A DNA stretch of 64,000 nucleotides from Gemmatimonadota bacterium (GCA_030747075.1 JASLLL010000001.1:78868-142867); one strand, 5' to 3'; numbered from the stretch's first letter, positions 29,226-45,585 are shown. Translations and numbers: made by a program. The notes: generated from the letters alone by a model not told the origin.

Positions 29226-31667
29226 CTACTCTGTCGAAGGAGGAGGGGCCCGCGCCTCGCGCCGGGCGTCCAGCACATCCGGATCTCCGCCCTTTTCCAG
29301 ATAGAGGTCGAACAACGGGGCGGCCCCTTCGGGATCTTCGAGGAGAAACTCCCGCACAAGCCCCTGTGTCAGGTAGGGTTCGGGATTGCTCGGATCGGCC
29401 CGAGAAGCCCTCTGAAGGCTCGCGTGCGCCTCCTCACCCTTGCCCAGCATGGCCTGCGTGCGCCCCAGATACAGGAACACCCCCGGGAGGCGCGGTTCCG
29501 CCTCCGCCGCGCGCAGAAAGGCGTCCTCCGCACCCACCGCCTCTCCGGCCTCCAGCAGCAGCAGTCCCAGCCCGCGCGAGGCCTCCGGGCAGGCGTCTCC
29601 CCTCTCGAACAGCCTGCGATAAAGGTCGATGGCTGCCGCGACATTCCCCTTCAGCCGTGTCAGCTCCGCCAGGCGGTAATCCTCGTCGCTCTCGAAGCAC
29701 CCGCCCGCTCCGGCTTCACGAAGTCGCCCCAAATCCTCGATAAACAGCATGTAGCGTCCCATCTGGGCGCGTGCGGAGTCGTTGTGAGGTGCCTGCCAGC
29801 GGTCGTTGTACTCGCGGACCGCCAAGAACTCCCTGCGGGCTCCTTCCACATCTCCCAGCCAGAGAAGCTCCGCCCCCAGCGCGGAATGCCCGAGCAGGTA
29901 GCGAGGTTCCACGGCCACCGCCTGTCGAAGGGCTTCGGCCGCCTCTTCATGCCGCCCCAGTTCGGAGAGGATCACGCCCCGGTTGAACGGCGGGCGGTAG
30001 TAGTCGGGGTTGATCTCTTCCGCGCGGCGAATGTGCTCGAGCCCCTCCTCCAGTTGCCCCAGCCGCACCAGGTCCACTCCGAGATTCAGATGGCACTTGT
30101 CGTACTCGGGCTTCAGTTCGAGCGCGGATCGGTAGTGCTCCACGGCGGCCTCGTGGTCTCCTTCTCCGTCAGAGACGATGCCGTGCCGGTAGAGAATCTG
30201 CGCAATCCCCTTGCTTTCGTCCACGCCGTACACATTCGCGCTCATGAAGAGGCCGATCGCGACGGCACCCGCCACCGCACCCGCCCCCTTTGCCCAGGCC
30301 CGCGCCCGAGTCAGAGCGGCCAGTTCCACCAGCGCAACCCCCGCGAAGAGAACGAGCGCGGGCACAATGGGAAGCCGGTAGCGCGCCAGCACGAAGAAGA
30401 CGATCACGCTTGCGGAGTAGAACCCCACGAAGAGGTAGGGCAGCATCCATCGGCGACGACGACGCCAGGACAGCACCATCCCCAGTACGGCCAGCGGCCC
30501 GAGCACCAGGAAGGTGAACGCCGGCCCTCCAATGGCCCGGCTGAAGTGTCGGAAGTAGCCGAAGTGCTCGATCTGCGGGATCTCGTAGGTGGCCCAGAAG
30601 TGATACGCCTTCATGACCATGAGCGACATCCAACGCGCCGGGTCCCCCCCGATTGTGCGCAGCGTCTCCTTCAGGTAGAAGTCGTTGACCTCGGTAAACG
30701 AGAGCCTCCGGCCCGTGACCTTCTCCGCCTCGGTCCGGCACTCCACATCCTTGTGCAGGTCCGCGACGATCTGCCTCGTGACGGCGTGCTCCCCGACACC
30801 TTCCGTGACGAACAGCACAGGAGTCTCGTGGCCACCGCGTGCCATCGGGCCGTTGCCGATGTACAGGTTGAGTCCGCCGTTTGTCGTCAGGAGGGTGGGA
30901 TCGTCGGTCCGTGCGTTGTGGATCGTTGCGGGGGAGATGGCAAGAAGCGTTCCCGCCGTCAGTACGAGTGCGCCGGGCAGGCCGCGCCGGAGATTCGCGA
31001 GTGCGGGCGAAAACTCCCGGCCCCACGCACATGCCAGCCAGAGGAACGCCGCGGGAGCAAAGAGCAGAATGTTCCCGCGACCCAGCGCATACACGCCCAT
31101 GACGAACCCGGCGGCAAAGGCGTGCGACAGCGACGACCGGCGGGCTGCATCGTGCAGCAGCAGCAGAAGGGAAGCTGCGAGGAAGACGGTGAGGGTCGGA
31201 TAGAGAATCGAGGTGGAGTAGTAGATCAGCGGGCCGTAGAGCGCGACCATCGCGGAGCACGCCATCGCGAGATTCCGCCCGCCGAAACGGCGACCCAGAC
31301 CGTGCGCCACCACCACGGTCGCGACGGAAAGCCCAATCTGCAGAAAGCGCACCATCCATAACCCTGGCCCGAAGAAGTAGTGCACCAGCGCGAGAAGGTG
31401 CGGATAGAGCGGCCCCATGAAGTACGGATCGCTTCGCTGAATCCCTCCCGCCAGAATGGCGCCCGCCCAGTCTTCGTAGTACTTCGAGTCCAGCCCCAGA
31501 AAGTCGAACCAGGAGTGCGCACGCATCGAGTGCCAGTGAATCAGCCGAAGCGCGGACGCCACCAGTACCGCGCCCCACAACCACGACCGTTCGAGGAGGC
31601 TCGTGGGCGAACGGTCCGCCGGGGAGGCTGTGGGCGGGTTTTGGGTCGCTTTACTGGTCACCGTCAT
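29226..31667 (-). CDS. GT-C fold glycosyltransferase (PMT_2/ArnT-like) fused to C-terminal TPR repeats (TMTC-like), paralog of 16115..17878
   Basis: N-terminal ~450 aa form a multi-TM region with PMT_2-type features (GLDSKYYEDWAGAILAGGIQRSDPYFMGPLYPHLLALV). The C-terminal ~330 aa are TPR (ILYRHGIVSDGEGDHEAAVEHYRSALELKPEYDKCHLNLG...). Its start codon is 4 nt downstream of the YfhO-AlkP ORF stop. Confidence 0.75.
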   Translation of the reverse strand: MTVTSKATQNPPTASPADRSPTSLLERSWLWGAVLVASALRLIHWHSMRAHSWFDFLGLDSKYYEDWAGAILAGGIQRSDPYFMGPLYPHLLALVHYFFGPGLWMVRFLQIGLSVATVVVAHGLGRRFGGRNLAMACSAMVALYGPLIYYSTSILYPTLTVFLAASLLLLLHDAARRSSLSHAFAAGFVMGVYALGRGNILLFAPAAFLWLACAWGREFSPALANLRRGLPGALVLTAGTLLAISPATIHNARTDDPTLLTTNGGLNLYIGNGPMARGGHETPVLFVTEGVGEHAVTRQIVADLHKDVECRTEAEKVTGRRLSFTEVNDFYLKETLRTIGGDPARWMSLMVMKAYHFWATYEIPQIEHFGYFRHFSRAIGGPAFTFLVLGPLAVLGMVLSWRRRRRWMLPYLFVGFYSASVIVFFVLARYRLPIVPALVLFAGVALVELAALTRARAWAKGAGAVAGAVAIGLFMSANVYGVDESKGIAQILYRHGIVSDGEGDHEAAVEHYRSALELKPEYDKCHLNLGVDLVRLGQLEEGLEHIRRAEEINPDYYRPPFNRGVILSELGRHEEAAEALRQAVAVEPRYLLGHSALGAELLWLGDVEGARREFLAVREYNDRWQAPHNDSARAQMGRYMLFIEDLGRLREAGAGGCFESDEDYRLAELTRLKGNVAAAIDLYRRLFERGDACPEASRGLGLLLLEAGEAVGAEDAFLRAAEAEPRLPGVFLYLGRTQAMLGKGEEAHASLQRASRADPSNPEPYLTQGLVREFLLEDPEGAAPLFDLYLEKGGDPDVLDARREARAPPPSTE

Positions 31668-31673
31668 GGCTCC

Positions 31674-34600
31674 TTATTGAACATAACCGAGCGATCGGAG
31701 TTGCTCCTCCACGGATCGGTCGTTTCCGGTCGTGCCGGATGGCCGCGACTCCCCGGGTCGGCGCAGGCCGTCCGTCGGGGTCCCGGAGAAAACCACCGGA
31801 CGCGCGGCGATGCAACCCGAACGAAAGAGATGATCCGCCACACGGCCGGTGTATCGACCCGGAACCGCCTCTCCCAGCAGGTGGAGAACGGTTGGGGAGA
31901 TGTCCGCCAGATTCAGCTCCGCGCGAGCACCCGGCGCGAACGGCGGCCCTGTCGCCGCAAAGTACCCGACCCGTCGATGATAGCCCGAGAACACCTTTGG
32001 CGGAATCGGCACGACCACCGGACCGGCCGGATCCCACGGGATGAGGAGGAACCCCTCGGCTTCGATGGCGCAAACATCCGGCCCGACGCCCTGCCCGAAG
32101 CCGGTACCCGGCGTCCCGGCAAGGTCGTGAACTTCGCGGAAGAGGAGATTGCCACGAGGCCCACGCACTTCCCGAAGATGGCGGACGAACAGAGCGCGCG
32201 CCTCCGCATCCTTGCGCATGAGGTAGAACTCGCCGCCGAAGAGACTCCTCGATCCGGGATTCAGCTCCGCAACTTCCGGCGGGATTCCGGCCAGCAGTGC
32301 GTCACGCGAGATCCCCCGGTACGCCGGGCCGAACCCGTGGTCGGCCAGTACCACCAGTGCGGTTTCTTTCGGAAGGCGGTGGCGCACTTCGCCGAGAACC
32401 TCGTCGCACCATGCGTAAATGTCGCGGACCGCGGTGCGGAGAGGCTCGGGGGCGCCGGGATCGTGGCGGGGGTGCGCGGAATCGTGGAACTTCCAGAGGT
32501 GATGCTGAATGCGATCCGGCACCGTGAACACGATGAACGACAGGTCCGGCGATGCATCGAACAGAAGGTCCAGCCCGATCTCCCGACGCGCCTCCGCCTT
32601 TGCCCGAAGGTCCGCCAGCCACGACAGCTCCTGTCCCGGGGGAGGGAGCCCGGGAAGTTCGTCGCGCGGATATCCGGCCCCCGCCAGAGAGTCCGCGAGG
32701 GAGGGTGGCCAGGTGAGCGGCGCCCCCTCAGGATAGGGAAAGCCCGCGACCATGAAGCCGCGCACCGAGTCCGGCGGGCAGGTCACCGGCACATTGACGA
32801 CCCCCACCGTGCGGCCCGCAGACGCAAGATCCTGCCAGACGGTGGGCGCAAGGCGGTGGGTCGCGTCGATGTACGCGCCACGCGGGTCGCTCCGGTCATC
32901 GCCGACCACCCAGAACCCCCACACGCCATGCGCGGAAGGTTCGACGCCGGTCGTGGCCGTCGTCCATGCGGGCGGGGAAATCATGGGGAGCGTACTGCGC
33001 ACCCCCCCGGCCGCGCCCTCTGCCCGGAGGCGCGCGAAGTTCGGCAGGAGCCCTTCGGCTTCCATCTCCTCCACAAGCCCGGCATCCAGCCCGTCGAATC
33101 CGAGAACGAATACCGGCGCGGGTTTCGCGGCCTCCTGCGCCGCGTTTCCGCCGCACGCGCCCAGAAGGAACGGGAGCACAACGCACGCCGCCACCGACGC
33201 AACCCGGCGGCGCGGGATGCAAAGGAGCGCCCCGGCGGCAAGCAGCCCCGCGATCGAGAGAATGCGCCCCGCCCGCACCGGGATGGGATTGTAAACCATG
33301 CGAACCTCATGCTCCCCCGGCGGGACGACCACCCCGCGCACCACCCCGTACACGGGAAGCACGGGGGCATCGTCACCGTCGATCTCCGCGCGCCACCCGG
33401 GACTGTAGGTGTCCGCAAGCACCAGGAGCCGTTCAGCCGGGGCTTCCGTGACAAGTCTCACCTCGTTCCAGGAGTCGCGCATCATGCGAACCGTCCCGGC
33501 TTCGTCGCTCTCGCTCCCTTCCTCGCCTACGGATCCCACGCCCACCCAGTACGCTTCGCATCCGGGAGCGAACGCCCCCTCGGCAAGCACCGACTCCATT
33601 TCCAGTTCGGACACGCCGTGAGCGCGAGCCACCAGCCGCGCACGGGGAAGCGCCTCTTCGTTGACGAAGACGCGAAATCCCCCGCCCTTGATCTCACGCC
33701 ATCCGCGCGCCGAGAGAGTCTCGGTGCCGACCGCAGCGCGAACGGAAAGCGCATCGAGAACGGGATGCTCCATCGAAGACGCGCGCTCGGGCGCGAGAAT
33801 CCTCCGGCCCGACCAGATCCCGCCGGTGAAGAGTTCCTCCCCCAGCGCGGTCTCCAACGCGTCGCCAACACGACGCTCCGCCAGCGCGTTGTAGCCCTGC
33901 AGGTCGCGCAACCGGAACGGCACATTCGTCGAGGGAGGCAGCACGCCAGAGAGCTTCCCCGCGCGCGCTGCCGGGTGCCGCCCGAATCGGAGGAAGCGTC
34001 CGCCGCCCATGCCCTCGTCCTCCAGCACGCTTCGAAGCGCGGTGATGGACGGCGTCTCGACGAAGACCTCCGAAGGCAGCCGGTCTCCCCGGTAAGGCGC
34101 GGCCAGCGGGTAGAGTTGCACAAGAGCCAGCACGAACGGTGCGGCCGCGACGAGCGGCCGTGCGCCAAGGAGAAACGCGACGCCCGTTCCGGCCGCGAAG
34201 AGTGCCGCGGTGGTCGTCCGCGCGAGAACGGTCGTGGCAAACTCCACGGGGAGCGGCTCCCCCGCGCCCAGAAGAAGCGGAAGGTCCGCGCCCGCCCGAC
34301 GCACCAGCAGCCATCCACCCGCGGCCAGGAGTATCGTGCCGACGCCCGCGACGCGTCGCCAACGCCCATCCGCGCGAAGAAGATCCGCGGCGCCGTATGC
34401 GGCCAGCACGAACTGCGCGACGACCAACAGGTACCCGGCGCGATCCATCCGCGAGAACGAGAACCCGGGGAGGACGGCGTGCGCGAACCGGGCCGGCGGA
34501 GCGGCGAACGCAATCCCGGCAAACGCGACGAACACCGCCGCCCACGGCAGCGCGTCACGGCGCGTGCGGGGATTCGCCACAGCCCAGAGCGCCAGCAGGA

Positions 34601-35606
34601 ATACCGGCGTCGCGGCGGAGATGGTGTTGAGCTGGTGCCGCAGGTAGAAACCATCGCCGCGCGGGAAGAGAAGGCTCCACTCGTCTCCGGTGACGGGCGA
34701 ACCGAAGAAGTTCGGCACGAGGAAGCGGATGGCCTCCACCGGGTGCACGGAACCGGACGCAACCGTGGCAAAGGGCAGCGACGCGCGCGCGGACCGGGAC
34801 GCCAGATCCACGGTCGGGAGAAGTTGCGCGGCGGAGAGCAGGAAGGCCAGCACCCCCGCCGCCGCAAACGCCCCGAGGGTGGGGGCGAGTCGCGGGCGCT
34901 TCGCGGAGTCCGTCGGAAATGCGTACAGGACGATCAGGACCAGCAGGGTCGCATAGATCGTGTGGAAGAAGGTCTGTGGCTGCCCCGCCAGAAAGAGAAA
35001 CGCGCCGACCATGCCCAGCCATGCGCTCTCGCGAAGTCCGGGCCGCGCAAAGACCGAAAGCGCCGCCGCCAGAAACCACGGTGTCCAGGCCGCCGCCGCC
35101 AGAAAGGTCGGCTGGCCGAAGTGCTTGGCGAAGTACTCGTTCAGGCAGAAGGCCGCGGCAGCGCTCAACGCAACAAGCGGGGGGACGCGATGCCGGAGAA
35201 GCAGCAACATGCCCAGGCCGCCCCACGCCGCGTGCAGAAAGAGGAAGAGGCCGAGTTGCCGGGCGGGATCCATCGGGAAGAGCGCCCAGTTTGGGGGGTA
35301 GAGTACGCCTGCCTGCACATCGGCCAGAAACGGCGTGCCCCCGAAGGAGTACGGATTCCAGAGCGGCACTTCGCCGTCCTTCCACGCCGCATGGAGCACG
35401 GCGCGGCGCGGGTAGTACGAGAGGTTGCAGTCCGGGTTGTGCGAAGGGGACCCGACGCTCTCCTTCGGCCCTTCGACTCCCCACGGCAGCCAGCGGTCCA
35501 TCCCGCTCGTCACGGCAACGCGGCCGCCGAAAAGTTCCGGGGCAAAGAACACCGCCGCGAGCACCACGACGACCATGCCGGAGAGCACCAGACGACGGCG
35601 GGTCAT
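31674..35606 (-). CDS. YfhO-like polytopic membrane glycosyltransferase fused in-frame to a C-terminal alkaline-phosphatase-superfamily (type I phosphodiesterase/NPP-like) domain
   Basis: The 1453-aa ORF begins with a ~143-aa Arg-rich non-protein-like extension. The real start is the internal Met MTRRRLVLSGMVVVVLAAVFFAPELFGG at ~35606, which overlaps the upstream gene's stop (ATGA). Residues ~144-890 are YfhO-like (many TM helices; NPYSFGGTPFLADVQAGVLYPPNWALF; terminal TM ILSIAGLLAAGALLCIPRRR). With no stop codon they continue into VASVAACVVLPFLLGACGGN... and an NPP/AlkP-like domain (PVFVLGFDGLDAGL...LPNFARLRAEGAAGG...LPMISPPAWTTATTGVEPSAHGV...LADHGFG), ending ...EEQLRSLGYVQ. The domain junction is near 33357. 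Confidence 0.65.
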   Translation of the reverse strand: MTRRRLVLSGMVVVVLAAVFFAPELFGGRVAVTSGMDRWLPWGVEGPKESVGSPSHNPDCNLSYYPRRAVLHAAWKDGEVPLWNPYSFGGTPFLADVQAGVLYPPNWALFPMDPARQLGLFLFLHAAWGGLGMLLLLRHRVPPLVALSAAAAFCLNEYFAKHFGQPTFLAAAAWTPWFLAAALSVFARPGLRESAWLGMVGAFLFLAGQPQTFFHTIYATLLVLIVLYAFPTDSAKRPRLAPTLGAFAAAGVLAFLLSAAQLLPTVDLASRSARASLPFATVASGSVHPVEAIRFLVPNFFGSPVTGDEWSLLFPRGDGFYLRHQLNTISAATPVFLLALWAVANPRTRRDALPWAAVFVAFAGIAFAAPPARFAHAVLPGFSFSRMDRAGYLLVVAQFVLAAYGAADLLRADGRWRRVAGVGTILLAAGGWLLVRRAGADLPLLLGAGEPLPVEFATTVLARTTTAALFAAGTGVAFLLGARPLVAAAPFVLALVQLYPLAAPYRGDRLPSEVFVETPSITALRSVLEDEGMGGGRFLRFGRHPAARAGKLSGVLPPSTNVPFRLRDLQGYNALAERRVGDALETALGEELFTGGIWSGRRILAPERASSMEHPVLDALSVRAAVGTETLSARGWREIKGGGFRVFVNEEALPRARLVARAHGVSELEMESVLAEGAFAPGCEAYWVGVGSVGEEGSESDEAGTVRMMRDSWNEVRLVTEAPAERLLVLADTYSPGWRAEIDGDDAPVLPVYGVVRGVVVPPGEHEVRMVYNPIPVRAGRILSIAGLLAAGALLCIPRRRVASVAACVVLPFLLGACGGNAAQEAAKPAPVFVLGFDGLDAGLVEEMEAEGLLPNFARLRAEGAAGGVRSTLPMISPPAWTTATTGVEPSAHGVWGFWVVGDDRSDPRGAYIDATHRLAPTVWQDLASAGRTVGVVNVPVTCPPDSVRGFMVAGFPYPEGAPLTWPPSLADSLAGAGYPRDELPGLPPPGQELSWLADLRAKAEARREIGLDLLFDASPDLSFIVFTVPDRIQHHLWKFHDSAHPRHDPGAPEPLRTAVRDIYAWCDEVLGEVRHRLPKETALVVLADHGFGPAYRGISRDALLAGIPPEVAELNPGSRSLFGGEFYLMRKDAEARALFVRHLREVRGPRGNLLFREVHDLAGTPGTGFGQGVGPDVCAIEAEGFLLIPWDPAGPVVVPIPPKVFSGYHRRVGYFAATGPPFAPGARAELNLADISPTVLHLLGEAVPGRYTGRVADHLFRSGCIAARPVVFSGTPTDGLRRPGESRPSGTTGNDRSVEEQLRSLGYVQ

Positions 35607-37162
35607 CGCGGACCCCCGTCGGTTCGGCGAAGTGCGGTTCGCAGCACTGCGGTCCACTCGCGCTCCGCGACGCCGTCTTCGCTCAGGAGCCTGACGGCGC
35701 GGGCGTCGTTCCCGGCGGCCGCCTCCGCGCCGGCGAGCATCCACGCCGCGTGGTGCGCTCCGGCAACCGGGAGGTGTCGCGCCGAACCGAACACGCGTGC
35801 GACACCGAGATGGCGCGGCCCCGGAAGCACATAGACCCCGGCGACCAGCGGCCACGCGCGCACCCACAGGAGAAGCACCACCGTCGCGACCACGACCGAG
35901 CGCCGGAGTATTCCGCGCTCCCGGATTCTCCGGGCGGCAGCGACCGCCGCCACCGCGAGAATGGGAACGAGCGGTTGATGCATTCGCGAGTGCCCGTACA
36001 CGACCATGTGGACGACGAAGTAGACCGCGACCCACGACACCGCCAGCGAACGAAACCGTGACCGCCGCATGGCGGCCAGCCCCACGGGGCCACCGATGAG
36101 GAAAACCACCGACGCCGCCAGCGTGAGAAGCGAAAGCGCGACCGCCGCGCCCGGCGACACCGGCCCGTACCAGTCGCGAAGAAGGTGGCGCGGCAGGAAG
36201 AAATCAGGCGACCAGAACGCCGCCGCCTTCCCCGGCGCGCGAAGCAGGGCGGCGGCCGGGTCCCGCGCCACTTCCTCCATGGCCCGCGCGCGGTACCATC
36301 GGTCGCGGGCAATCCGGGCATCTTCGCCGCGCCCCGCGCCATCGGCGGCCATGCGCCGCTCCACATCTTCCCGCCAGCGCGGATCGGACAGCGGCACGCC
36401 CACGCCATTCCCGGGCGCAAGCCCCACCGACCAGAGCGCGGGCAGCCCTTCGCCCAGGTAGCGGTTGTGCCCGCTCCACAGGTTGAATCCGCCGTTTGCG
36501 TCGATGAGAACGGGTTCGCCCGCCCTCCCGCTGGCGTGCAGGCTCCACGGCGCCACGATCACCACGCCCGCGGCCAGGAGGGCACCCGCGCAGAGGAGGC
36601 GACGACCGCGCGGAGCGGACGCGGCAAGCCACACGGCACTCACCGCGAGAAGCGCAAGCCCCGTCGACCGGGTCAGCGCCGCCGCGCCCAGCAGCGCGCC
36701 CGCCCCGGCCGCGCGAAACGCCCCGCCGCGTCGCGACGCCGCCGGTAGCAACGCGAACGCCGCCAGCGCGAGGAATCCGTAGAGCGTCTCCGACCATAGA
36801 AGATGCGAGAAGGCAATGTGCGACGGATGAAGCGCGACGAGCGCGGAGGCCGCGAGTGCCCCGCGAGTGCCCAGCGGACGACGCGCGACGCGCCACACGA
36901 GCGCCACCGTTCCGACACTCAGGAGCGCCTGAAGAACGCGCACGCCCACGGCCTGCCCGCCGGAGAGCAGAAGCCCCGCCGCCGTGAACCACTGGTAGCC
37001 GGGTGCCCGCCAGAGCGCCGGGCCGCCTTCATCCGAAGCGATCCGGGCGCCGTAGGACAGGAACTCGGTCTCGTCGTAGCGGGGTGTGAGGTCCGCAAAG
37101 AAAACCGCGAGGGCCACGCGAAGGACCAGCGCCCCCGCGAGAATCCCGGCGAGTCCTCTCAC
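35603..37162 (-). CDS. ArnT/PMT_2-like GT-C fold membrane glycosyltransferase (no TPR)
   Basis: About 12 TM helices with ArnT/PMT_2-like N-terminal features (LTPRYDETEFLSYGARIA...LHPSHIAFSHLLWSETLYGF). The first ~99 aa of the 618-aa ORF are not protein-like. The likely start is an in-frame GTG at ~37162 that overlaps the GT2 stop (GTGA), giving MRGLAGILAGALVLRVALAVFF. Confidence 0.7.
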   Translation of the reverse strand: MRGLAGILAGALVLRVALAVFFADLTPRYDETEFLSYGARIASDEGGPALWRAPGYQWFTAAGLLLSGGQAVGVRVLQALLSVGTVALVWRVARRPLGTRGALAASALVALHPSHIAFSHLLWSETLYGFLALAAFALLPAASRRGGAFRAAGAGALLGAAALTRSTGLALLAVSAVWLAASAPRGRRLLCAGALLAAGVVIVAPWSLHASGRAGEPVLIDANGGFNLWSGHNRYLGEGLPALWSVGLAPGNGVGVPLSDPRWREDVERRMAADGAGRGEDARIARDRWYRARAMEEVARDPAAALLRAPGKAAAFWSPDFFLPRHLLRDWYGPVSPGAAVALSLLTLAASVVFLIGGPVGLAAMRRSRFRSLAVSWVAVYFVVHMVVYGHSRMHQPLVPILAVAAVAAARRIRERGILRRSVVVATVVLLLWVRAWPLVAGVYVLPGPRHLGVARVFGSARHLPVAGAHHAAWMLAGAEAAAGNDARAVRLLSEDGVAEREWTAVLRTALRRTDGGPR

Positions 37163-37887
37163 CGATTGCCCCGAAGAACGATGCTCACCCACATGCTCGC
37201 AATCTCGCGAAGCGTGGAAAGCACATGGCTCGGGCGAACCGTGGACTCTCCCGCTTCGCGCGGGAAGTGCCGCACGCCGATTTCGGTCATGCGCATCTTC
37301 TGGCGCGAGGCCTTTGCGAGAATCTCCGTGTCGACGAAGAACTTGTCCGACTCGATGTGGATCGTGTCGAACACTTCGCGGCGGAAGAGCTTGAAGGCAC
37401 AGTCCACATCGCGGACGCGGATGCGGAAGAGAATCCGCACAAGCAGGTTGTACCCCCACGACAGGATGAGCCGGGAGAGGGGGTCGAACCGGTAAATGCG
37501 AAAGCCGCAGACGATCTCGTAGTCGTCGATGGCGGCCAGGAAGTTCTTGATCTCGCGAATGTCGAACTGGTTGTCCGCGTCGGTGTAAAACACCAGCGGC
37601 ATGGCGGCCCCGCCGAACCCGGTGGCCAGCGCCTTCGCATAACCCCGGTTGGTCTCGTGAACAAGCGTTCGCAGTTTCGGGACTTCCTCGCGAAGACCTT
37701 CGAGAATCTCTCCGGTGCGGTCGGCGCTTCCATCGTCCACAACGATGACTTCGTAATCCTCGAAGCGGAACTCCCGCAGCACGGAGTCTACCGAGCGCAC
37801 CTGCCGCTCAATGCTCTCTTCTTCGTTGTACGCGGGAAGAACCACCGAGATCTTTCGCCCGACACCGGGCGGGGGTCTGTCAGCCAA
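37159..37887 (-). CDS. GT2-family polyprenol-phosphate sugar transferase (DPM1/CsbB/GtrB-like)
   Basis: ISVVLPAYNEEESI...YEVIVVDDGSADRT...NRGYAKAL...DADNQFD, with a C-terminal amphipathic/TM tail. This is typical of the GT2 enzymes that make polyprenol-P-sugar donors for GT-C transferases. Confidence 0.85.
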   Translation of the reverse strand: MADRPPPGVGRKISVVLPAYNEEESIERQVRSVDSVLREFRFEDYEVIVVDDGSADRTGEILEGLREEVPKLRTLVHETNRGYAKALATGFGGAAMPLVFYTDADNQFDIREIKNFLAAIDDYEIVCGFRIYRFDPLSRLILSWGYNLLVRILFRIRVRDVDCAFKLFRREVFDTIHIESDKFFVDTEILAKASRQKMRMTEIGVRHFPREAGESTVRPSHVLSTLREIASMWVSIVLRGNR

Positions 37888-39625
37888 GGTACCCGATCCC
37901 CCGAAGCCGGTTGCGGATCTCCTCCCGCTCCGACTCGCTCATGTGATGATCCTCGCCGGTGCCGCCCTCCCCCGCCGGGGGGGCGCCACGCACCGGACGC
38001 TCCTTCATTTCGGCTTCCGTGAACACACTTTCCAGCACACGCCCGTCAAAGTCCGACGGAATCCCCAGGCCCAGATGGTGGAGGATCGTCGGCGCGACAT
38101 CCAGAAGCCGTCCGCCCCGGAGCACCGCTCCCCGGCGAACCCCGTCGCCCGCCGCGAAGAAGATCCCGTTCATCCGATGGTCTCCTGAGTTTCCGTACAC
38201 CGGTTCGATGAATCGGTTCGAGGTAAAATCCACCGTACCCAACGCCTTGTTCCGCATGTCCACAGGAAGGAAGGTGATCTCCGGCGCACGGTGGACGAAC
38301 GGGCCGTCGTAGAGGTCCCCGGCGCGGTGAATCTCCCCGATGAGCGGTTCGCCGGTATTCGGGTCCTGAAGCGCCCGCAGTTCGCGGATGACTTCTTCCG
38401 TCACGCGCTCCGCCTCTTCGCCCGGCTCCACCGACCCGCTCGGTTCGCGGCCCCGCAGGTTGAGGAAGATCTGCCCGTAGTTCCCCTTGGAGTAGGCCGT
38501 GCTCCGCGACCAGTCCACATCGTCCAGCGACAGGAACACGCGATTGATCCGGCGAAGGAGACGCACGCGCGTCCCCACGCCCGAGGCAAGGCGCATCCGC
38601 GCGAACCCGAGCTTCATGGAGATCCGGTAGCCAAGCGCGGGGGTGAGTCCCATCTCGAAGAGCGCGCGCCGGGCAAAGGTCAACAACCCCGGCTTCAGCC
38701 GCAGGAACCCCTTCTGCAACAGCCAGACATTGAACACGAAGAAGCGATGGATGGGGCCGAACCCGTGGTCGGAGAGCACCACGGTGGTCGCGTCCGGGGC
38801 GGCCGCCATCCACTCGCCGACGACGGCGTCCACGCGCCGGAAGTAGTCCACGCACCGGTCGCGGCAGATCAGCGCCTCCGCGGGGTCGTGCTCCGGGTGG
38901 CTCGGGTCGAGAATGTGCCAGAGTTCGTGGCCGAAGCGGTCCGTGCCCCAGACATGGAGCATCGCGAAGTCCCACTCCTTCTCCGTCAGAAGCCAGTGGT
39001 ATGCGCGACGGTTCGCCTCCAGCACGCGGTCCAGTTCATCGAGCACCGGGGCGGCGTTCCCCTTTCGGTACACCTCGACATGATAGAGCTGGTAGGGACC
39101 GGTCGCTTCCTCGATCTCGGCGAGCAGTTCCGGCGGCCAGGTGAAGTCGCGGTTTCCCATCGGCGTGAGGAAATCACCCACGAGATTCCCGCGCACCGGA
39201 GACGGCGGGTAGGTGACCGGCACGCCGACGACCAGCACCTTCTTCCCCGCCTCGGAGAGAATCTCCCACAGCGTCTTCCCCGCGCGGGCAGCGGAGTTCA
39301 CGGGGACTTCGTCAAAGCTCCCCGGCTCGCGGAGAAAGAACTCGAAGACGCCATGCCGCCCGGGGTTCTTGCCGGTCATGAAGGAACACCACGCGGGCGC
39401 GGTCACCGGCGGAATGATCGATTCCAGCGGACCGGACACGCCCTCGTCGCGGAGCCGCGCGAGATTCGGCATGGTGCCGTCGTCCAGCCACGGCCCGATC
39501 AGATCCAGTGTGGCGCCGTCGAGCGCGATGGCGAGAACGCGGCGGGACACGACTATTCCGGCTGGAGGTACACGGGGCTCGACCAGGCCATCCCCCCGTA
39601 CTCGTCCATGCCGCGCAGGTAGCAC
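37880..39625 (-). CDS. Alkaline-phosphatase-superfamily protein (type I phosphodiesterase/nucleotide pyrophosphatase-like), paralog 2
   Basis: VLAIALDGATLDLIGPWLDDGTMPNLARLRDEGVSGPLESIIPPVTAPAWCSFMTGKNPGRHGV (Thr nucleophile, PF01663-like); LSDHGFG; C-terminal tail ...EEIRNRLRGIGYLG. No signal peptide. An alternative GTG start at ~39550, 4 nt after the DUF3604-like gene's stop, would remove the 72-nt overlap. Confidence 0.75.
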   Translation of the reverse strand: MLPARHGRVRGDGLVEPRVPPAGIVVSRRVLAIALDGATLDLIGPWLDDGTMPNLARLRDEGVSGPLESIIPPVTAPAWCSFMTGKNPGRHGVFEFFLREPGSFDEVPVNSAARAGKTLWEILSEAGKKVLVVGVPVTYPPSPVRGNLVGDFLTPMGNRDFTWPPELLAEIEEATGPYQLYHVEVYRKGNAAPVLDELDRVLEANRRAYHWLLTEKEWDFAMLHVWGTDRFGHELWHILDPSHPEHDPAEALICRDRCVDYFRRVDAVVGEWMAAAPDATTVVLSDHGFGPIHRFFVFNVWLLQKGFLRLKPGLLTFARRALFEMGLTPALGYRISMKLGFARMRLASGVGTRVRLLRRINRVFLSLDDVDWSRSTAYSKGNYGQIFLNLRGREPSGSVEPGEEAERVTEEVIRELRALQDPNTGEPLIGEIHRAGDLYDGPFVHRAPEITFLPVDMRNKALGTVDFTSNRFIEPVYGNSGDHRMNGIFFAAGDGVRRGAVLRGGRLLDVAPTILHHLGLGIPSDFDGRVLESVFTEAEMKERPVRGAPPAGEGGTGEDHHMSESEREEIRNRLRGIGYLG

Positions 39626-41055
39626 CAGGTCGGCTCGGTGACCGGGAGCGTCTCGGCCGTGATCTCCACGACATCGATGTCCTCGCCTTCCGGCATGAGC
39701 GCGGCGATCGGCCCGTCCGGCCCGACGACCTCGATCCGCATCCAGCGCGTCATCGACCCGAGCGAACCGTAGATGGCCGCGACATGGCCACTCGGCACGC
39801 GAAGGTCCGAACCCATCTGGTGCCCGTCGACGGTGAACTCCAGCAGGTAACGACGGCCGGAGGTGGCGTAGCAGCGACGCTCACGAAGCGCGTCCAGCAC
39901 GGCCTCGCGGGTCAGTTCCTTTGCGAGAACGGCGGTCAGCCCGACAGGCCAGATGCTGTCCCCGGTGCGAATGCCCATGGGGTTGCCGGGTTGCGTCGAG
40001 CGAATGTCCCCGGTGCCGATGAAGCCCACGCGCGCCCCGGAGGCGAGAAGGTCCTTCGCGTAGGGACCGGGCGCGTCTCCGGTGTCCGGCGGGCGCGGAA
40101 GCCCGGCCGATTCAAACATCCCGAGCGACGAAACCACTTCCACCAGCCCCTCCCGCGACGGGGCTACGGAGGCGGGATCCACGGCGGGACGCGTCGTGGT
40201 TCCGGGCGGGTGCGGCACCGCGAGGATGGCACCGTCAGGAAGCGCGGCGGCGAGTTTCTCCGGTGTGTCGAATCCGGCCGCGTTCGACCACAACCGCTCC
40301 GGCGGCCCCGGGAGAAGCACGAGGCGATCCCCATACTCCCCGGACGCCCAGCGGAAACCATGCAGCGGGATGAAGTCTCCCGGGCGGTGGAGATCGTCGA
40401 GGACGCTGCCTTCGATCTCCATCCACGCCTCTTCGTCGAGCGCCTTTTCGATGGACGCGTCATAGTCCGAATCCGTCAACGCCGCGAAGTCCAATAGCCC
40501 CACGCCGCGCGCGTACCAGAAATAGACGGCGGGCGCGTGGTTCCCCGCGCCGAGGTCGCTCACGCCGCTCAGGTCACCCCAGTAGATCCGGTAGTCGGGA
40601 TCCGTCTGGACGACGAAGGCGTTCGCTTCCGCCGACACGGTGTCCTCCGGAACGAGGCCGCGCAGGTTCTGTACGCCCGGAAGCTCAAAGACGAGGCCTT
40701 CCATCAGGTAGAAACCGTCTTCGTCCGGCTCCCAGGAAGCGCGGTCCATCTTCTGGAACGGGTTCTCGGCGGAGGCTTCCACGCGAAACCCGCCTTCGAA
40801 GTCGTAGTCCGGCGCGCCAACCTGCGTCACGACGCGCATCTTGAGGTCGACTTCTTCGCCCGCCTTCACGATGGACGGGATCACGAGATGGACATAGGTA
40901 CCCACTTCCGTCACGGGCACGGAGGGGCCTGCCGATTCGGTTCCGCCCTCCGACGGGACGGCGGCATCCTCGGTGCCTTTGCCGCATCCGGGGAGAAGGA
41001 GAGCCAGCGCGACGAGCCATGCCGTCGCGACGGTTGTTGTTCCACCGTGCATCAT
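39553..41055 (-). CDS. Lipoprotein, DUF3604-like (my family assignment is uncertain)
   Basis: Lipoprotein signal (LVALALLLPGCG). No catalytic motif I can recognise; the segments RCYATSGRRYLLEF and AVPHPPG are reminiscent of DUF3604/PHP-like secreted proteins. Coding potential looks good throughout. Confidence 0.5.
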   Translation of the reverse strand: MMHGGTTTVATAWLVALALLLPGCGKGTEDAAVPSEGGTESAGPSVPVTEVGTYVHLVIPSIVKAGEEVDLKMRVVTQVGAPDYDFEGGFRVEASAENPFQKMDRASWEPDEDGFYLMEGLVFELPGVQNLRGLVPEDTVSAEANAFVVQTDPDYRIYWGDLSGVSDLGAGNHAPAVYFWYARGVGLLDFAALTDSDYDASIEKALDEEAWMEIEGSVLDDLHRPGDFIPLHGFRWASGEYGDRLVLLPGPPERLWSNAAGFDTPEKLAAALPDGAILAVPHPPGTTTRPAVDPASVAPSREGLVEVVSSLGMFESAGLPRPPDTGDAPGPYAKDLLASGARVGFIGTGDIRSTQPGNPMGIRTGDSIWPVGLTAVLAKELTREAVLDALRERRCYATSGRRYLLEFTVDGHQMGSDLRVPSGHVAAIYGSLGSMTRWMRIEVVGPDGPIAALMPEGEDIDVVEITAETLPVTEPTWCYLRGMDEYGGMAWSSPVYLQPE

Positions 41056-41090
41056 CCGGATTCCTCCCGGCCCGTGGGCCGCGTGTCCTG

Positions 41091-42422
41091 TCAGTCGAGA
41101 TACCCCAGTGCGCGAAGCCGGGACACAATCTCCGCGTCCACCGGGGAGGCAACGGGCGCCCCTCCGCGCTCTCGATCCACTTCCGGCTCCCAGGAGGGAA
41201 TCTCCTGAACGGGATGTCCAAAGAGGTGTTCCTCTTCGAAGAGATCCAGCGCGGGGCTTCCGTCCATGTCCGTCGCCACCGGCAGCCCGGAAGCATAGAG
41301 GAGGGTTGGCGTGAAGTCGACCACCGACGCCGGGGGCAGAAGGCCTTCGCGGAGCCCCGGCCCGTCACTGAGAAGAATGCCGCTGGAGCGATGCCACCCG
41401 GAACTGGTGGCTCGCGCGGGGTCGCGGTTTTCGCGAAACCCGTGGTCCGACAGAATAAAGAGCCGCGTGGGCTCCTCCTCGCGGGCGAGGACGCCGGTGA
41501 GGATATCGTCGACGGAGCGGTACGCGCTCTCGATGCTGAGTCCGTAGGCCGCCACTTCGGCGGGGTCCACCTTGCCGAGAGCGTAGGTGTCCGGCTCCAT
41601 GTACTTCCAGAACCGGTGACCCACGACATCCACCGACCCGAAATAGAGAAACTCCACATCCGCGCGTTCCGCCGGCTGTGAACGGTCCGCAAGGTGGTGG
41701 TAGATGCGTTCGTAGGTGCGGTCGCTGGCCCACGACCAGCGCATGCCCTCCAGCGATCGGGCGGCGTCGGGCGATGGCGCACGGGGAAGGGGAACGCCGG
41801 TGAAGCGCGCGGCGAGTTCATGGTCGCCAATGGAATCGGGGCGCGTCTTCAGCGCGGACAGCTCCTCTTGAAGCCCGGGCGGCCAGACTTGATCGCGGAT
41901 GCCTTCGACGAAGGTGCCCTTCAGCGGACGGCTGGCCTTGTCGCCGCTCCATCCCGCAAAAAAGGGCGTGTACGAAGAGATCATCACGCCATTCACCGGC
42001 TCCGCGGGCCAGGTGGCCAGCCAGCCGTACACGCCCACCGTGCGATCGCGTGCGGAGAGGATGTTCCAGGCAGCGGCGACGCGGCGCTGGTTGGAGGTGA
42101 CAGGCTGAATGGAGCCGTCTTCGCCGCGCGTCACGAAGTGGTGGATGCCGTGGCGCTCGGGGAGGACGCCGGTGGCGGCGGTGGTCCAGATGGTGGGCGA
42201 GAGGCGCTCGGGAATGAGCGACACGAGCGTTCGCCGGGAACCCGTGCGGAGGATGCGCTTCATGGCGGGGAGCTTCCCCTGCCGCACGAGCGGGAGCGCG
42301 CGGTCCCAGTCCGCGCCGTCGATCCCGAAGACGATGACGCGCGGGGCGGGGTTGTCGCCTCCACCGGAACATCCGGCCGCGAAGAGGAGCGCGGCGGCGA
42401 GCGGAAGCGACAAGCGCCTCAC
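41091..42422 (-). CDS. Alkaline-phosphatase-superfamily lipoprotein (type I phosphodiesterase/NPP-like), paralog 3
   Basis: The likely start is a GTG overlapping the glyS stop (GTGA), giving [21 protein letters not shown] (lipobox). RVIVFGIDGADWD...LVSLIPERLSPTIWTTAATGVLPERHG (Ser nucleophile); LSDHGF; C-terminal tail ...AEIVSRLRALGYLD. Confidence 0.75.
   Translation of the reverse strand: MRRLSLPLAAALLFAAGCSGGGDNPAPRVIVFGIDGADWDRALPLVRQGKLPAMKRILRTGSRRTLVSLIPERLSPTIWTTAATGVLPERHGIHHFVTRGEDGSIQPVTSNQRRVAAAWNILSARDRTVGVYGWLATWPAEPVNGVMISSYTPFFAGWSGDKASRPLKGTFVEGIRDQVWPPGLQEELSALKTRPDSIGDHELAARFTGVPLPRAPSPDAARSLEGMRWSWASDRTYERIYHHLADRSQPAERADVEFLYFGSVDVVGHRFWKYMEPDTYALGKVDPAEVAAYGLSIESAYRSVDDILTGVLAREEEPTRLFILSDHGFRENRDPARATSSGWHRSSGILLSDGPGLREGLLPPASVVDFTPTLLYASGLPVATDMDGSPALDLFEEEHLFGHPVQEIPSWEPEVDRERGGAPVASPVDAEIVSRLRALGYLD

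Positions 42423-44514: not shown

Positions 44515-44518
<4 letters not shown>
42419..44518 (-). CDS. glyS: Glycine--tRNA ligase beta subunit
   Basis: [26 protein letters not shown]... is a typical GlyS N-terminus, with similarity across the whole length. It is immediately downstream of glyQ with a 4-nt overlap. Confidence 0.9.
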
Positions 44519-45393
<875 letters not shown>

Positions 45394-45585
45394 GGTCCGG
45401 CTCCTCCGAATGGCGAGGGAGTATAGCGGAATCCGGCGGTGTGGGAAGAGGCGCGTGGGGGGTGCCGGAACCGGCCAGGCGACCGCGCGCGGGAAGGCCC
45501 GCAACCGCAAGCCGGGTGCGCCGTGAGGCGGGCGTGAGGAATCGGCAGCCTTGTCGAAGCGACCGGGGCAGACTAGACTGGTGCC

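What the first reader, a model, noticed from the sequence alone, without database searches (positions are those of the whole stretch)
31674..35606. Apparent in-frame fusion of a YfhO-like GT-C membrane glycosyltransferase with an alkaline-phosphatase-superfamily (NPP-like) domain
The YfhO-like polytopic region ends in a TM helix plus a basic stop-transfer sequence (ILSIAGLLAAGALLCIPRRR). With no stop codon it continues into a second hydrophobic segment (VASVAACVVLPFLLGACGG) and a complete NPP/AlkP-like domain of about 560 aa.

There is no canonical start with a basic n-region for an independent downstream lipoprotein; the only in-frame candidate is an internal GTG that would give MAACVVLPFLLGAC. 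So either this is a genuine GT-C::phosphotransferase fusion, or a sequencing/assembly frameshift has merged two genes.

A membrane glycosyltransferase fused to an extracytoplasmic AlkP-fold domain is architecturally reminiscent of LtaS/EptA-type enzymes (TM domain plus AlkP-fold phosphotransferase). I am not aware of it being described for YfhO. It could couple glycosyl transfer and phospho-headgroup transfer or removal on one substrate.
Basis: seen in the sequence. Interest (0 to 1): 0.65.

Follow-up and report, generated by a model that had tools for sequence, protein, structure and literature searches.

The report
Real YfhO–phosphodiesterase gene fusion, lineage-specific
In one marine Gemmatimonadota species two neighbouring genes, a membrane glycosyltransferase and a lipid-anchored phosphodiesterase-like enzyme that are separate in all sampled relatives, have merged into one reading frame; the merger is real, not a sequencing error, but it is an ordinary kind of event that mainly suggests the two enzymes work together.

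Summary
Window 31674-35606 (minus strand) is one uninterrupted 1310-codon ORF. Residues 1-~797 are a YfhO-family GT-C glycosyltransferase. Residues 802-818 are a hydrophobic segment ending in a lipobox (LLGAC). Residues ~830-1310 are an NPP/PhnA-type alkaline-phosphatase-superfamily domain with all catalytic residues present.

It is not an assembly artefact. Six other assemblies carry the same junction without gaps, at 99.3-99.7% nucleotide identity and with their own SNPs.

It is unique to this species-level lineage. All other homologues of either half (41-59% identity) are stand-alone proteins. In the nine closest genomes the two genes are adjacent but separated by a stop codon, and the second gene starts with a normal lipoprotein signal peptide. 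A search of 1.84 billion representative proteins found no other YfhO+NPP protein.

So the "second hydrophobic segment" is the retained lipoprotein signal peptide. It now forms a helical hairpin with the last YfhO helix and should place the NPP domain in the periplasm, tethered or released by signal peptidase II.

The fusion is Rosetta-stone evidence that the two enzymes cooperate within a conserved GT2 / GT-C / NPP-like cluster. The chemistry remains inferred. Interest is modest.

The parts
31674..35606 (-). Single 1310-codon ORF: YfhO-like GT-C fused in frame to an NPP-like AlkP-superfamily domain. The start ATG overlaps the stop of the upstream PMT_2 gene (ATGA).
   Evidence: The same 1310-aa protein is annotated in 5 variants from different assemblies.
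33216..35606 (-). YfhO-family GT-C glycosyltransferase part (residues 1-797): multi-helix membrane domain (about 1-505), periplasmic beta-rich C-terminal domain (about 520-772) and a final transmembrane helix (779-797). Asp59 is invariant in the first loop.
   Evidence: Pfam PF09586. 41-57% identical stand-alone YfhO proteins of about 800 aa end at this point. AF2 pLDDT 89.5, pTM 0.91. Foldseek hits AftD 8e-9, AglB, ArnT, STT3, AftA, PglB. D59 invariant in 30 sequences.
33204..33212 (-). Arg799-Arg801 (RRR): short cytoplasmic turn at the fusion point. It is the end of the homology to stand-alone YfhO proteins and doubles as the positively charged n-region of the former signal peptide.
   Evidence: Alignment A1: homologues end 2-35 residues after the equivalent RR. 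One Arg is nearly invariant in the AlkP signal-peptide alignment.
33153..33203 (-). Retained lipoprotein signal peptide (V802-C818): hydrophobic h-region plus lipobox L-L-G-A-C818. It contains the only internal in-frame start candidate, GTG V805 (33192-33194), which has no SD.
   Evidence: Hydropathy peak 802-820. Predicted helix 799-816. Cys invariant in 24/24 homologues, which all begin M-(R/K)-hydrophobic-[AG][GA]-C. Coordinates.
31677..33152 (-). NPP/PhnA-type alkaline-phosphatase-superfamily domain (residues 819-1310). Putative metal and nucleophile residues: D838, S877, D1031, H1035, D1089, H1090, H1210. It ends in a conserved tail, LRSLGYVQ-COOH.
   Evidence: Pfam PF01663 98.5 bits. phmmer to phosphonoacetate hydrolase 3szy 4e-9, with the D, nucleophile, DxxxH and DH motifs aligned. 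AF2 pLDDT 86.6. Foldseek Xac NPP 7.9e-18, ENPP6/5/7/1/3. Residue conservation.
35603..37459 (-). Upstream neighbour: PMT_2-type GT-C glycosyltransferase. Start uncertain: 519 aa in public annotations, 618 aa as the longest ORF.
37159..37887 (-). GT2 glycosyltransferase (242 aa), candidate polyprenyl-phosphate-sugar synthase of the cluster (counterpart of CsbB/GtrB).
   Evidence: Pfam PF00535 1.6e-28. Same position in relatives.
29226..31667 (-). Downstream neighbour: PMT_2 + TPR protein (813 aa), a third GT-C-type enzyme. It starts 6 nt after the fusion's stop, behind an AAGGAG SD.
37880..39625 (-). Second Phosphodiest (NPP-like) paralogue. No signal peptide is evident, so it is probably cytoplasmic. 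Same C-terminal LRGIGYLG tail.
39553..41055 (-). DUF3604-like protein within the conserved cluster.
41091..42617 (-). Third Phosphodiest (NPP-like) paralogue, with its own lipoprotein signal (…LLFAAGC) and an LRALGYLD tail.

Best explanation
This is a genuine, lineage-specific gene fusion. In an ancestor of this marine Gemmatimonadota species, an in-frame deletion or stop-codon loss joined the 3' end of a yfhO-like GT-C glycosyltransferase gene to the gene immediately downstream, which encodes an NPP-like (AlkP-superfamily) lipoprotein. The join lies between the YfhO C-terminal Arg cluster and the hydrophobic core of the lipoprotein signal peptide.

Topology (inferred)
- The last YfhO helix (779-797) runs from outside to inside.
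- RRR (799-801) stays in the cytoplasm.
- The former signal peptide (802-817) runs back out.
- The NPP domain therefore ends up at the periplasmic face of the inner membrane, where it sits as a lipoprotein in relatives.
- The lipobox (LLGA|C818) is intact. The domain may remain tethered to YfhO through the hairpin, or be lipidated by Lgt and cut off by signal peptidase II.

Function (inferred)
- The GT2 enzyme of the cluster loads a sugar on polyprenyl phosphate.
- YfhO and the two PMT_2 GT-C enzymes transfer it to a periplasmic acceptor.
- The NPP-like enzyme makes or breaks a phosphodiester on the same lipid-linked donor or acceptor, for example by releasing polyprenyl phosphate from unused polyprenyl-P-sugar or by trimming or modifying a phosphate-containing glycan.

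Shown: the fusion, its reality, its uniqueness, the split state and lipoprotein nature in relatives, both folds, and intact catalytic motifs.
Inferred: topology, processing, and the chemistry.
For: The fusion exists and is reproducible
- Uninterrupted ORF with both domains.
- The same junction, gapless, is found in GCA_030744955.1, GCA_002686915.1, GCA_030749095.1, ENA ERZ17293991, ENA ERZ27286875 and JGI 3300035204, at 99.3-99.7% nucleotide identity.
- Differences between assemblies are mostly synonymous in both halves, for example 12 synonymous against 5 non-synonymous codons between the window and L021.

Relatives are split
- All other YfhO homologues are about 800 aa and end at the junction.
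- All other AlkP homologues are about 505-540 aa.
- In 9/9 of the closest genome loci the AlkP gene lies directly downstream of yfhO, behind a stop codon, and begins with a lipoprotein signal peptide. The Cys is invariant in 24/24 sequences.
- In 5 of those 9 loci the two genes are in the same frame with a single stop codon between them, so a fusion is one small step away.

The fusion is unique to this lineage
- phmmer of residues 111-1310 against 1.84e9 representatives found only the query's own cluster covering both halves. The long hits P0220 and P0250 are AlkP-AlkP and AlkP-TPR proteins.

Folds and catalytic residues
- GT-C fold and NPP fold.
- Catalytic motifs aligned to PhnA and conserved.

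Context and precedent
- Cluster context GT2 / PMT_2 / YfhO::NPP / PMT_2-TPR, plus two more NPP paralogues.
- The three-component scheme CsbB, GtcA, YfhO is described in PMC11898649. The same paper shows that dedicated hydrolases free UndP from trapped UndP-sugars.
- Periplasmic partner proteins are known to occur lipid-anchored, free, or fused to their membrane partner; this is described for ABC-importer binding proteins in PMC3971661.
Against: - No read-level, transcript or protein data were available, so whether the product stays as one chain is unknown.
- The lineage is sampled only at about 99% identity, and the next relatives are at about 57%. The age of the fusion and selection for it, as opposed to tolerance of it, cannot be judged.
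- SNP counts are small.
- The Pfam YfhO hit in this protein covers only the last 70 residues. Family assignment otherwise rests on homologues and fold.
- A subclade of more distant YfhO relatives (L010, L014, L016; 45-48% identity) has no AlkP gene nearby, so the pairing is not universal.
- No GtrA/GtcA-type flippase gene was identified in the cluster.
- The proposed substrate of the NPP domain is conjecture. NPP-type enzymes have very diverse substrates.
Confidence: 0.85

Rival explanations
1. One ORF but two mature proteins. The fused precursor is lipidated at Cys818 by Lgt and cleaved by signal peptidase II (LspA) before Cys818. This would yield YfhO with one extra C-terminal helix and a free NPP-like lipoprotein, so the fusion changes only expression (obligate 1:1 synthesis and co-insertion), not architecture.
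For: - The lipobox LLGAC and a hydrophobic h-region of normal length are intact. The Cys is invariant in all stand-alone homologues.
- The Arg cluster sits where an n-region would.
- The inferred topology presents the lipobox at the outer leaflet, as in a normal prolipoprotein.
Against: - No precedent was found in the literature searched for LspA processing of a lipobox some 800 residues into a polytopic protein.
- The lipobox may simply not have had time to decay.
- There are no protein data.
Confidence: 0.3
2. Sequencing or assembly artefact: an indel or a miscalled stop codon has merged two genes that are separate in the living organism.
For: - Every relative at 59% identity or less has two genes.
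- The region is 68-72% G+C.
Against: - Seven assemblies including the window, from NCBI MAG, ENA and JGI sources, have the identical in-frame junction with no gaps across 3933 nt. The ENA contig names indicate SPAdes- and MEGAHIT-style assemblies.
- They differ from one another by SNPs, including SNPs within the junction segment.
- Neither alternative frame has a nearby stop that would terminate a shifted YfhO.
Confidence: 0.03
3. Internal translation initiation at GTG (V805) makes an independent lipoprotein precursor, MAACVVLPFLLGAC…, alongside or instead of the full-length chain.
For: An in-frame GTG lies 13 codons before the lipobox Cys.
Against: - No Shine-Dalgarno-like sequence lies upstream, whereas the next gene has AAGGAG.
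- The resulting signal peptide would lack any positive n-region, unlike all 23 homologues.
- Without a stop codon there is no termination-reinitiation coupling.
Confidence: 0.1
4. A neutral or mildly harmful accident on the way to gene loss: the fused product is misfolded or inactive.
For: The fusion is confined to one species-level lineage.
Against: - Both halves keep all conserved and catalytic residues.
- Polymorphism is mostly synonymous in both halves.
- There are no frameshifts or stops in any of the seven copies.
- The topology is compatible with correct placement of both domains.
Confidence: 0.07

Closest known systems
YfhO / CsbB / GtcA three-component glycosylation system of Bacillus subtilis (and Listeria GtlB; streptococcal PgfM1/PgfM2)
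   Same: - YfhO-family GT-C enzyme: Pfam PF09586 and a GT-C fold.
- It is encoded next to a GT2 enzyme that would make the polyprenyl-P-sugar donor.
- Same logic of periplasmic or extracytoplasmic sugar transfer (PMC11898649).
   Different: - Diderm Gemmatimonadota host, so the acceptor cannot be assumed to be lipoteichoic acid.
- No GtcA/GtrA gene was seen in the cluster.
- The cluster has two further GT-C enzymes and three NPP-like proteins.
- In this lineage YfhO carries a C-terminal NPP-like domain. NCBIfam similarity to PgfM2 is marginal (18 bits against a 1500 cut-off).
Nucleotide pyrophosphatase/phosphodiesterases (Xanthomonas NPP, ENPP5/6/7) and phosphonoacetate hydrolase PhnA (PF01663)
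   Same: - Fold: Foldseek E about 1e-17, TM about 0.6 on the target.
- Sequence: PhnA 4e-9.
- Full set of two-metal-site ligands and a hydroxyl nucleophile.
   Different: - About 15-18% identity only.
- The nucleophile is Ser877 rather than Thr.
- About 100 extra residues, including inserts and a conserved C-terminal tail.
- Lipoprotein in relatives, membrane-tethered here.
- Substrate unknown.
LtaS / EptA / OpgB and GPI ethanolamine-phosphate transferases (membrane domain + extracytoplasmic AlkP-fold phosphotransferase)
   Different: - In those enzymes the membrane domain belongs to the phosphotransferase itself. Here it is a complete, independent GT-C glycosyltransferase that is a separate protein in all relatives.
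- No PF00884 sulfatase-type hit.
- The best structural matches are hydrolytic NPPs.
- Transferase activity is untested.
ABC importers whose substrate-binding protein is fused to the membrane domain (for example OpuA, GlnPQ)
   Same: An extracytoplasmic partner that is lipid-anchored or free in some organisms is joined to its membrane partner in one polypeptide in others (PMC3971661). By my own recollection, the former signal sequence serves as an extra membrane helix in OpuA.
   Different: - A different protein family and function.
- Those fusions are widespread and characterised. This one is limited to a single lineage.
UshA / UpsH of B. subtilis (enzymes that free undecaprenyl phosphate from trapped lipid-linked sugars)
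   Same: A possible functional analogue: a hydrolase that acts on polyprenyl-phosphate-linked intermediates of YfhO-type pathways (PMC11898649).
   Different: UshA is an alpha/beta hydrolase and UpsH a metallophosphoesterase, not AlkP-superfamily enzymes. No evidence here for this substrate.

Membership tests
YfhO family (Pfam PF09586), GT-C glycosyltransferases | Significant match to the family profile | tested here: met
   PF09586 scores 31.7 bits against a cut-off of 28.5, but only over residues 714-784. Nearly all of about 120 homologues carry a precomputed PF09586 hit.
YfhO family (Pfam PF09586), GT-C glycosyltransferases | GT-C fold: N-terminal bundle of many transmembrane helices plus an extracytoplasmic C-terminal domain | tested here: met
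   AF2 model pLDDT 89.5, pTM 0.91. Foldseek PDB hits: AftD 8.4e-9, AglB, ArnT, STT3, AftA, PglB, Emb.
YfhO family (Pfam PF09586), GT-C glycosyltransferases | Conserved acidic residue in the first extracytoplasmic loop (catalytic Asp of GT-C enzymes) | tested here: inconclusive
   Asp59 is invariant in 30 sequences. Its position in the loop after helix 1 fits, but its catalytic role was not tested.
YfhO family (Pfam PF09586), GT-C glycosyltransferases | Works with a GT2 polyprenyl-phosphate-sugar synthase and a GtrA/GtcA flippase | tested here: inconclusive
   A GT2 gene lies two genes upstream at 37159-37887. No GtrA-like gene was recognised among the cluster genes examined.
NPP / type I phosphodiesterase family (Pfam PF01663), alkaline-phosphatase superfamily | Significant match to the family profile and the AlkP-core fold | tested here: met
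   PF01663 scores 98.5 bits against a cut-off of 23. AF2 pLDDT 86.6. Foldseek Xac NPP 7.9e-18.
NPP / type I phosphodiesterase family (Pfam PF01663), alkaline-phosphatase superfamily | Bimetal site ligands (Asp, Asp-x3-His, Asp-His, His) and a Thr/Ser nucleophile | tested here: met
   D838, S877, D1031/H1035, D1089/H1090 and H1210 are present and 90-100% conserved. The first four motifs align with those of PhnA 3szy.
NPP / type I phosphodiesterase family (Pfam PF01663), alkaline-phosphatase superfamily | Phosphodiesterase or pyrophosphatase activity | not testable with these tools
   Requires enzymology.
Bacterial lipoproteins (Lgt/LspA substrates) | Lipobox [LVI][ASTVIG][GAS]C preceded by a hydrophobic h-region and a basic n-region | tested here: met
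   RRR-VASVAACVVLPFLLGA-C818. The Cys is invariant in 24/24 sequences.
Bacterial lipoproteins (Lgt/LspA substrates) | The signal peptide lies at the N-terminus of the precursor (Cys within roughly the first 15-35 residues) | tested here: not met
   In this ORF the Cys is residue 818. Stand-alone relatives meet the criterion. The fused product is therefore not filed as a classical lipoprotein; processing is a hypothesis.
LtaS / EptA-type phosphotransferases | Sulfatase-type AlkP domain (PF00884) joined to its own 5-helix membrane domain | tested here: not met
   No PF00884 hit at E<=0.01. The membrane part is a complete YfhO GT-C. The top 50 structural matches are NPPs.

The most novel reading that the evidence does not exclude
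The fusion marks a true two-enzyme machine. In Gemmatimonadota, Eisenbacteria and related uncultured lineages, NPP-like lipoproteins would be obligate periplasmic partners of GT-C glycosyltransferases in an undescribed envelope pathway. The cluster holds one GT2, three GT-C enzymes and three NPP-like proteins. The pathway would alternate polyprenol-phosphate-dependent glycosylation with phosphodiester formation or cleavage. One reading is a phospho-headgroup-decorated glycan, in loose analogy (recalled from memory, not tested) to GPI-core assembly, where GT-C mannosyltransferases alternate with PF01663-type ethanolamine-phosphate transferases. Another is built-in recycling of the lipid carrier.
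Probability: 0.25. Interest if true: 0.6.

Novelty: new variant of a known kind. Interest (0 to 1): 0.3.

Why it matters
Fusions of neighbouring genes are common, and this one is restricted to a single species-level lineage, so on its own it is a small finding. Its value is as a pointer. It links a YfhO-type glycosyltransferase to an uncharacterised family of NPP-like lipoproteins that sit next to it in the closest sampled Gemmatimonadota/Eisenbacteria-type genomes. That suggests a periplasmic glycosylation pathway with a phosphodiester step that nobody has studied. It is also a natural test case for what happens to a lipoprotein signal peptide placed in the middle of a polytopic membrane protein.

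Tried and rejected
Repeated with residues 111-1310.
- Sequence search of the YfhO half against the PDB: no hit at E<=1. The fold search then gave GT-C enzymes.
- 541-aa cluster members P0205 and P0210: considered as possible evidence for a split gene in close relatives, and rejected. Both start at a contig end and read through the junction.
- Long hits P0220 (1104 aa) and P0250 (1351 aa): checked as possible further fusions. They are AlkP-AlkP and AlkP-TPR proteins, not YfhO fusions.
- Look-up of P0209, the variant identical to the window protein: not on record.
- The genome-contig scan did not return the window's own species.
- Literature searches for an internal lipobox or LspA processing of polytopic fusions, and for COG3379: nothing useful.
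- Alternative frames at the junction: inspected for a nearby stop that would indicate a frameshift. None found.
- Modelling of domain packing in the full fusion: not attempted, because of the 1200-aa limit and because the tool returns no inter-domain contacts.

Full report
**Observation**

On the minus strand, window 31674-35606 is one open reading frame of 1310 codons. The ATG is at 35604-35606 and overlaps the stop of the upstream gene as ATGA. The stop is at 31674-31676.

Pfam finds the C-terminal end of the YfhO profile at residues 714-784 (31.7 bits, cut-off 28.5). It also finds a strong Phosphodiest/NPP match at residues 832-1103 (98.5 bits). NCBIfam gives only weak similarity to PhnA and PgfM2.

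The last hydrophobic helix of the YfhO part (779-797) is followed by PRRR. After that come, without a stop, VASVAACVVLPFLLGAC818GG and the AlkP-type domain.

Two small corrections apply. The downstream part is about 509 aa, not about 560. The junction lies at window 33153-33218, not near 33350.

**Is the fusion real?**

The 90%-identity cluster of this protein contains five different full-length 1310-aa variants from different assemblies, plus partial members. The variants differ by 3-5 residues.

I fetched the DNA of six other assemblies:
- GCA_030744955.1
- GCA_002686915.1
- GCA_030749095.1
- ENA ERZ17293991
- ENA ERZ27286875
- JGI 3300035204

All align to the window gene without a single gap, at 99.3-99.7% identity. 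All read through the junction in frame, and each has its own SNPs, some inside the junction segment.

Two 541-aa cluster members at first looked like a split version. They simply start at contig ends.

Differences between assemblies are mostly synonymous in both halves. A private sequencing or assembly error is therefore excluded for practical purposes.

**What do relatives look like?**

- About 120 listed homologues of the N-terminal part (41-57% identity for the closer ones) are stand-alone YfhO proteins of about 800 aa. They end 2-35 residues after the position of the RRR.
- The 84 homologues of the C-terminal part are stand-alone PF01663 proteins, about 505-540 aa where complete.
- Many of the two sets sit on contigs of the same length. 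In nine genome loci from Gemmatimonadota, Eisenbacteria and unclassified MAGs, the AlkP gene lies directly downstream of yfhO. It is separated by a stop codon and usually 20-240 bp; two loci have about 1-1.3 kb.
- In every case the AlkP gene starts with a textbook lipoprotein signal peptide: Met, one or more Arg/Lys, a hydrophobic stretch, then [A/G][G/A]-Cys. In a 24-sequence alignment that Cys is invariant and aligns with Cys818 of the fusion.
- In five of the nine loci the two genes are in the same frame with only one stop codon between them. A read-through fusion is therefore a very small mutational step. Here the absence of any linker between RRR and the hydrophobic core points rather to an in-frame deletion. 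That deletion would have removed the YfhO tail, the stop, the spacer, the start codon and most of the n-region.
- A phmmer search of residues 111-1310 against 1.84 billion representative proteins found only the query's own cluster covering both halves. The two long hits are AlkP-AlkP and AlkP-TPR proteins.
- More distant YfhO relatives (45-48% identity) lack an AlkP neighbour.

**What are the two parts?**

The N-terminal 830 residues model with high confidence (pLDDT 89.5, pTM 0.91). The model has a bundle of long helices, a beta-rich C-terminal domain (about 620-772) and a final helix at 775-795. Foldseek against the PDB returns only GT-C glycosyltransferases at the top: AftD, AglB, ArnT, STT3, AftA, PglB and Emb. 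Asp59, in the loop after the first helix, is invariant.

Residues 789-1310 model at pLDDT 86.6. They match Xanthomonas NPP, ENPP6, ENPP5, ENPP7, ENPP1/3 and autotaxin (E about 1e-17 to 1e-15). By sequence the closest solved protein is phosphonoacetate hydrolase (4e-9), with the metal-ligand and nucleophile motifs aligned.

The canonical residues D838, S877, D1031, H1035, D1089, H1090 and H1210 are present and conserved. There is no PF00884 (sulfatase/LtaS/EptA-type) signal.

**Context**

The gene sits in a tightly packed minus-strand cluster after glyQS, in this order:
1. NPP-like lipoprotein (41091-42617)
2. DUF3604-like protein
3. NPP-like protein without a signal peptide (37880-39625)
4. 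GT2 (37159-37887)
5. PMT_2 GT-C (35603-37459)
6. The fusion
7. PMT_2+TPR GT-C (29226-31667)

The same order, with yfhO and the AlkP gene separate, is seen in a 55%-identical relative.

**How it most likely works**

Shown: two enzymes that are neighbours in relatives are one ORF here. The former signal peptide and lipobox are retained.

Inferred from the positive-inside rule and the models:
- The final YfhO helix brings the chain to the cytoplasm.
- RRR stays inside.
- The former signal peptide (predicted helical, 799-816) crosses back.
- The NPP domain is periplasmic and membrane-proximal, as in relatives.

The chain may stay intact, giving a tethered bifunctional enzyme. Alternatively it may be lipidated and cut at LLGA|C818 by LspA. 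I found no precedent for the latter in the literature I searched. An internal start at GTG805 is unlikely: there is no SD and no basic n-region.

The known YfhO logic is as follows. A GT2 enzyme makes polyprenyl-P-sugar, a flippase moves it across the membrane, and the GT-C enzyme transfers the sugar outside (PMC11898649). By analogy, I infer that the NPP-like enzyme acts on a phosphodiester of the same lipid-linked donor or of the acceptor. It could release the carrier lipid, in functional analogy to UshA/UpsH in that paper, or it could modify or trim a phosphate-containing glycan.

The general phenomenon is established for ABC-importer binding proteins: an extracytoplasmic partner can be lipid-anchored in some organisms and fused to its membrane partner in others (PMC3971661).

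**Comparison and novelty**

Both halves are members of known families: YfhO/GT-C and PF01663 NPP-type AlkP superfamily.

The combination in one chain was not found anywhere else in the databases searched. I found no paper describing it, although the searches were limited. It arises from a conserved gene pair and is confined to one species-level lineage. I therefore rate it as a new variant of a known kind, not a new enzyme class.

The LtaS/EptA resemblance is architectural only.

The more interesting lead is the conserved, unstudied partnership between GT-C enzymes and NPP-like lipoproteins in this cluster.

**Verdict**

The fusion is real, but relatives are split and the second hydrophobic segment is a retained lipoprotein signal. 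Functional coupling is plausible; the chemistry is unknown. Interest 0.3.

Noticed in passing
window 31677-31700, 37883-37906, 41094-41117 (minus strand C-termini): All three NPP-like paralogues of the cluster end with the same C-terminal tail: …EQLRSLGYVQ, …NRLRGIGYLG and …SRLRALGYLD. The motif is nearly invariant in 24 homologues (L515, G519 and Y520 of alignment A2). It follows a low-confidence, Ser/Thr/Pro/Gly-rich linker. It might be a docking or sorting peptide, for example for the TPR domain of the neighbouring PMT_2-TPR protein, but the paralogue without a signal peptide carries it too.
   Followed up: partly
window 31380-35834 (+ strand): A 1484-codon ORF lies antisense to the whole fusion gene, and many other long ORFs occur in all frames. 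These are typical shadow ORFs of about 70% G+C DNA, not genes.
   Followed up: no
window 35603-37459 versus 37159-37887 (minus strand): The longest ORF of the PMT_2 gene (618 aa, GTG) would overlap the GT2 gene by about 300 nt. Public annotations use either 519 or 618 aa, so the true start is uncertain.
   Followed up: no
window 29226-45510 (minus strand): A conserved cluster lies directly after glyQ/glyS: one GT2, three GT-C-type enzymes (PMT_2, YfhO, PMT_2+TPR), three PF01663 NPP-like proteins (two lipoproteins and one apparently cytoplasmic) and a DUF3604-like protein. The equal number of GT-C and NPP-like genes is striking and unexplained.
   Followed up: partly
L011 8001-12928; L015 1-3866: Some Eisenbacteria/Gemmatimonadetes relatives carry two tandem yfhO paralogues (42-46% identical to the query) and no AlkP gene nearby.
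   Followed up: no
L009 9247-10750; L013 10436-11310: In two relatives about 1-1.3 kb of extra sequence separates yfhO from the AlkP gene. There the AlkP gene appears to start with TTG.
   Followed up: no
P0193, P0197, P0198, P0250; P0259: Other fusions of this NPP-like family exist: with TPR repeats (several), and with DUF2304, a small membrane domain (P0259). This again suggests that these enzymes act in membrane- or TPR-associated complexes.
   Followed up: partly
result list: The word-indexed homologue search with the AlkP half did not return the query's own 1310-aa cluster (P0001). That tool can therefore miss long multi-domain proteins. The exhaustive search was used to settle uniqueness.
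   Followed up: yes
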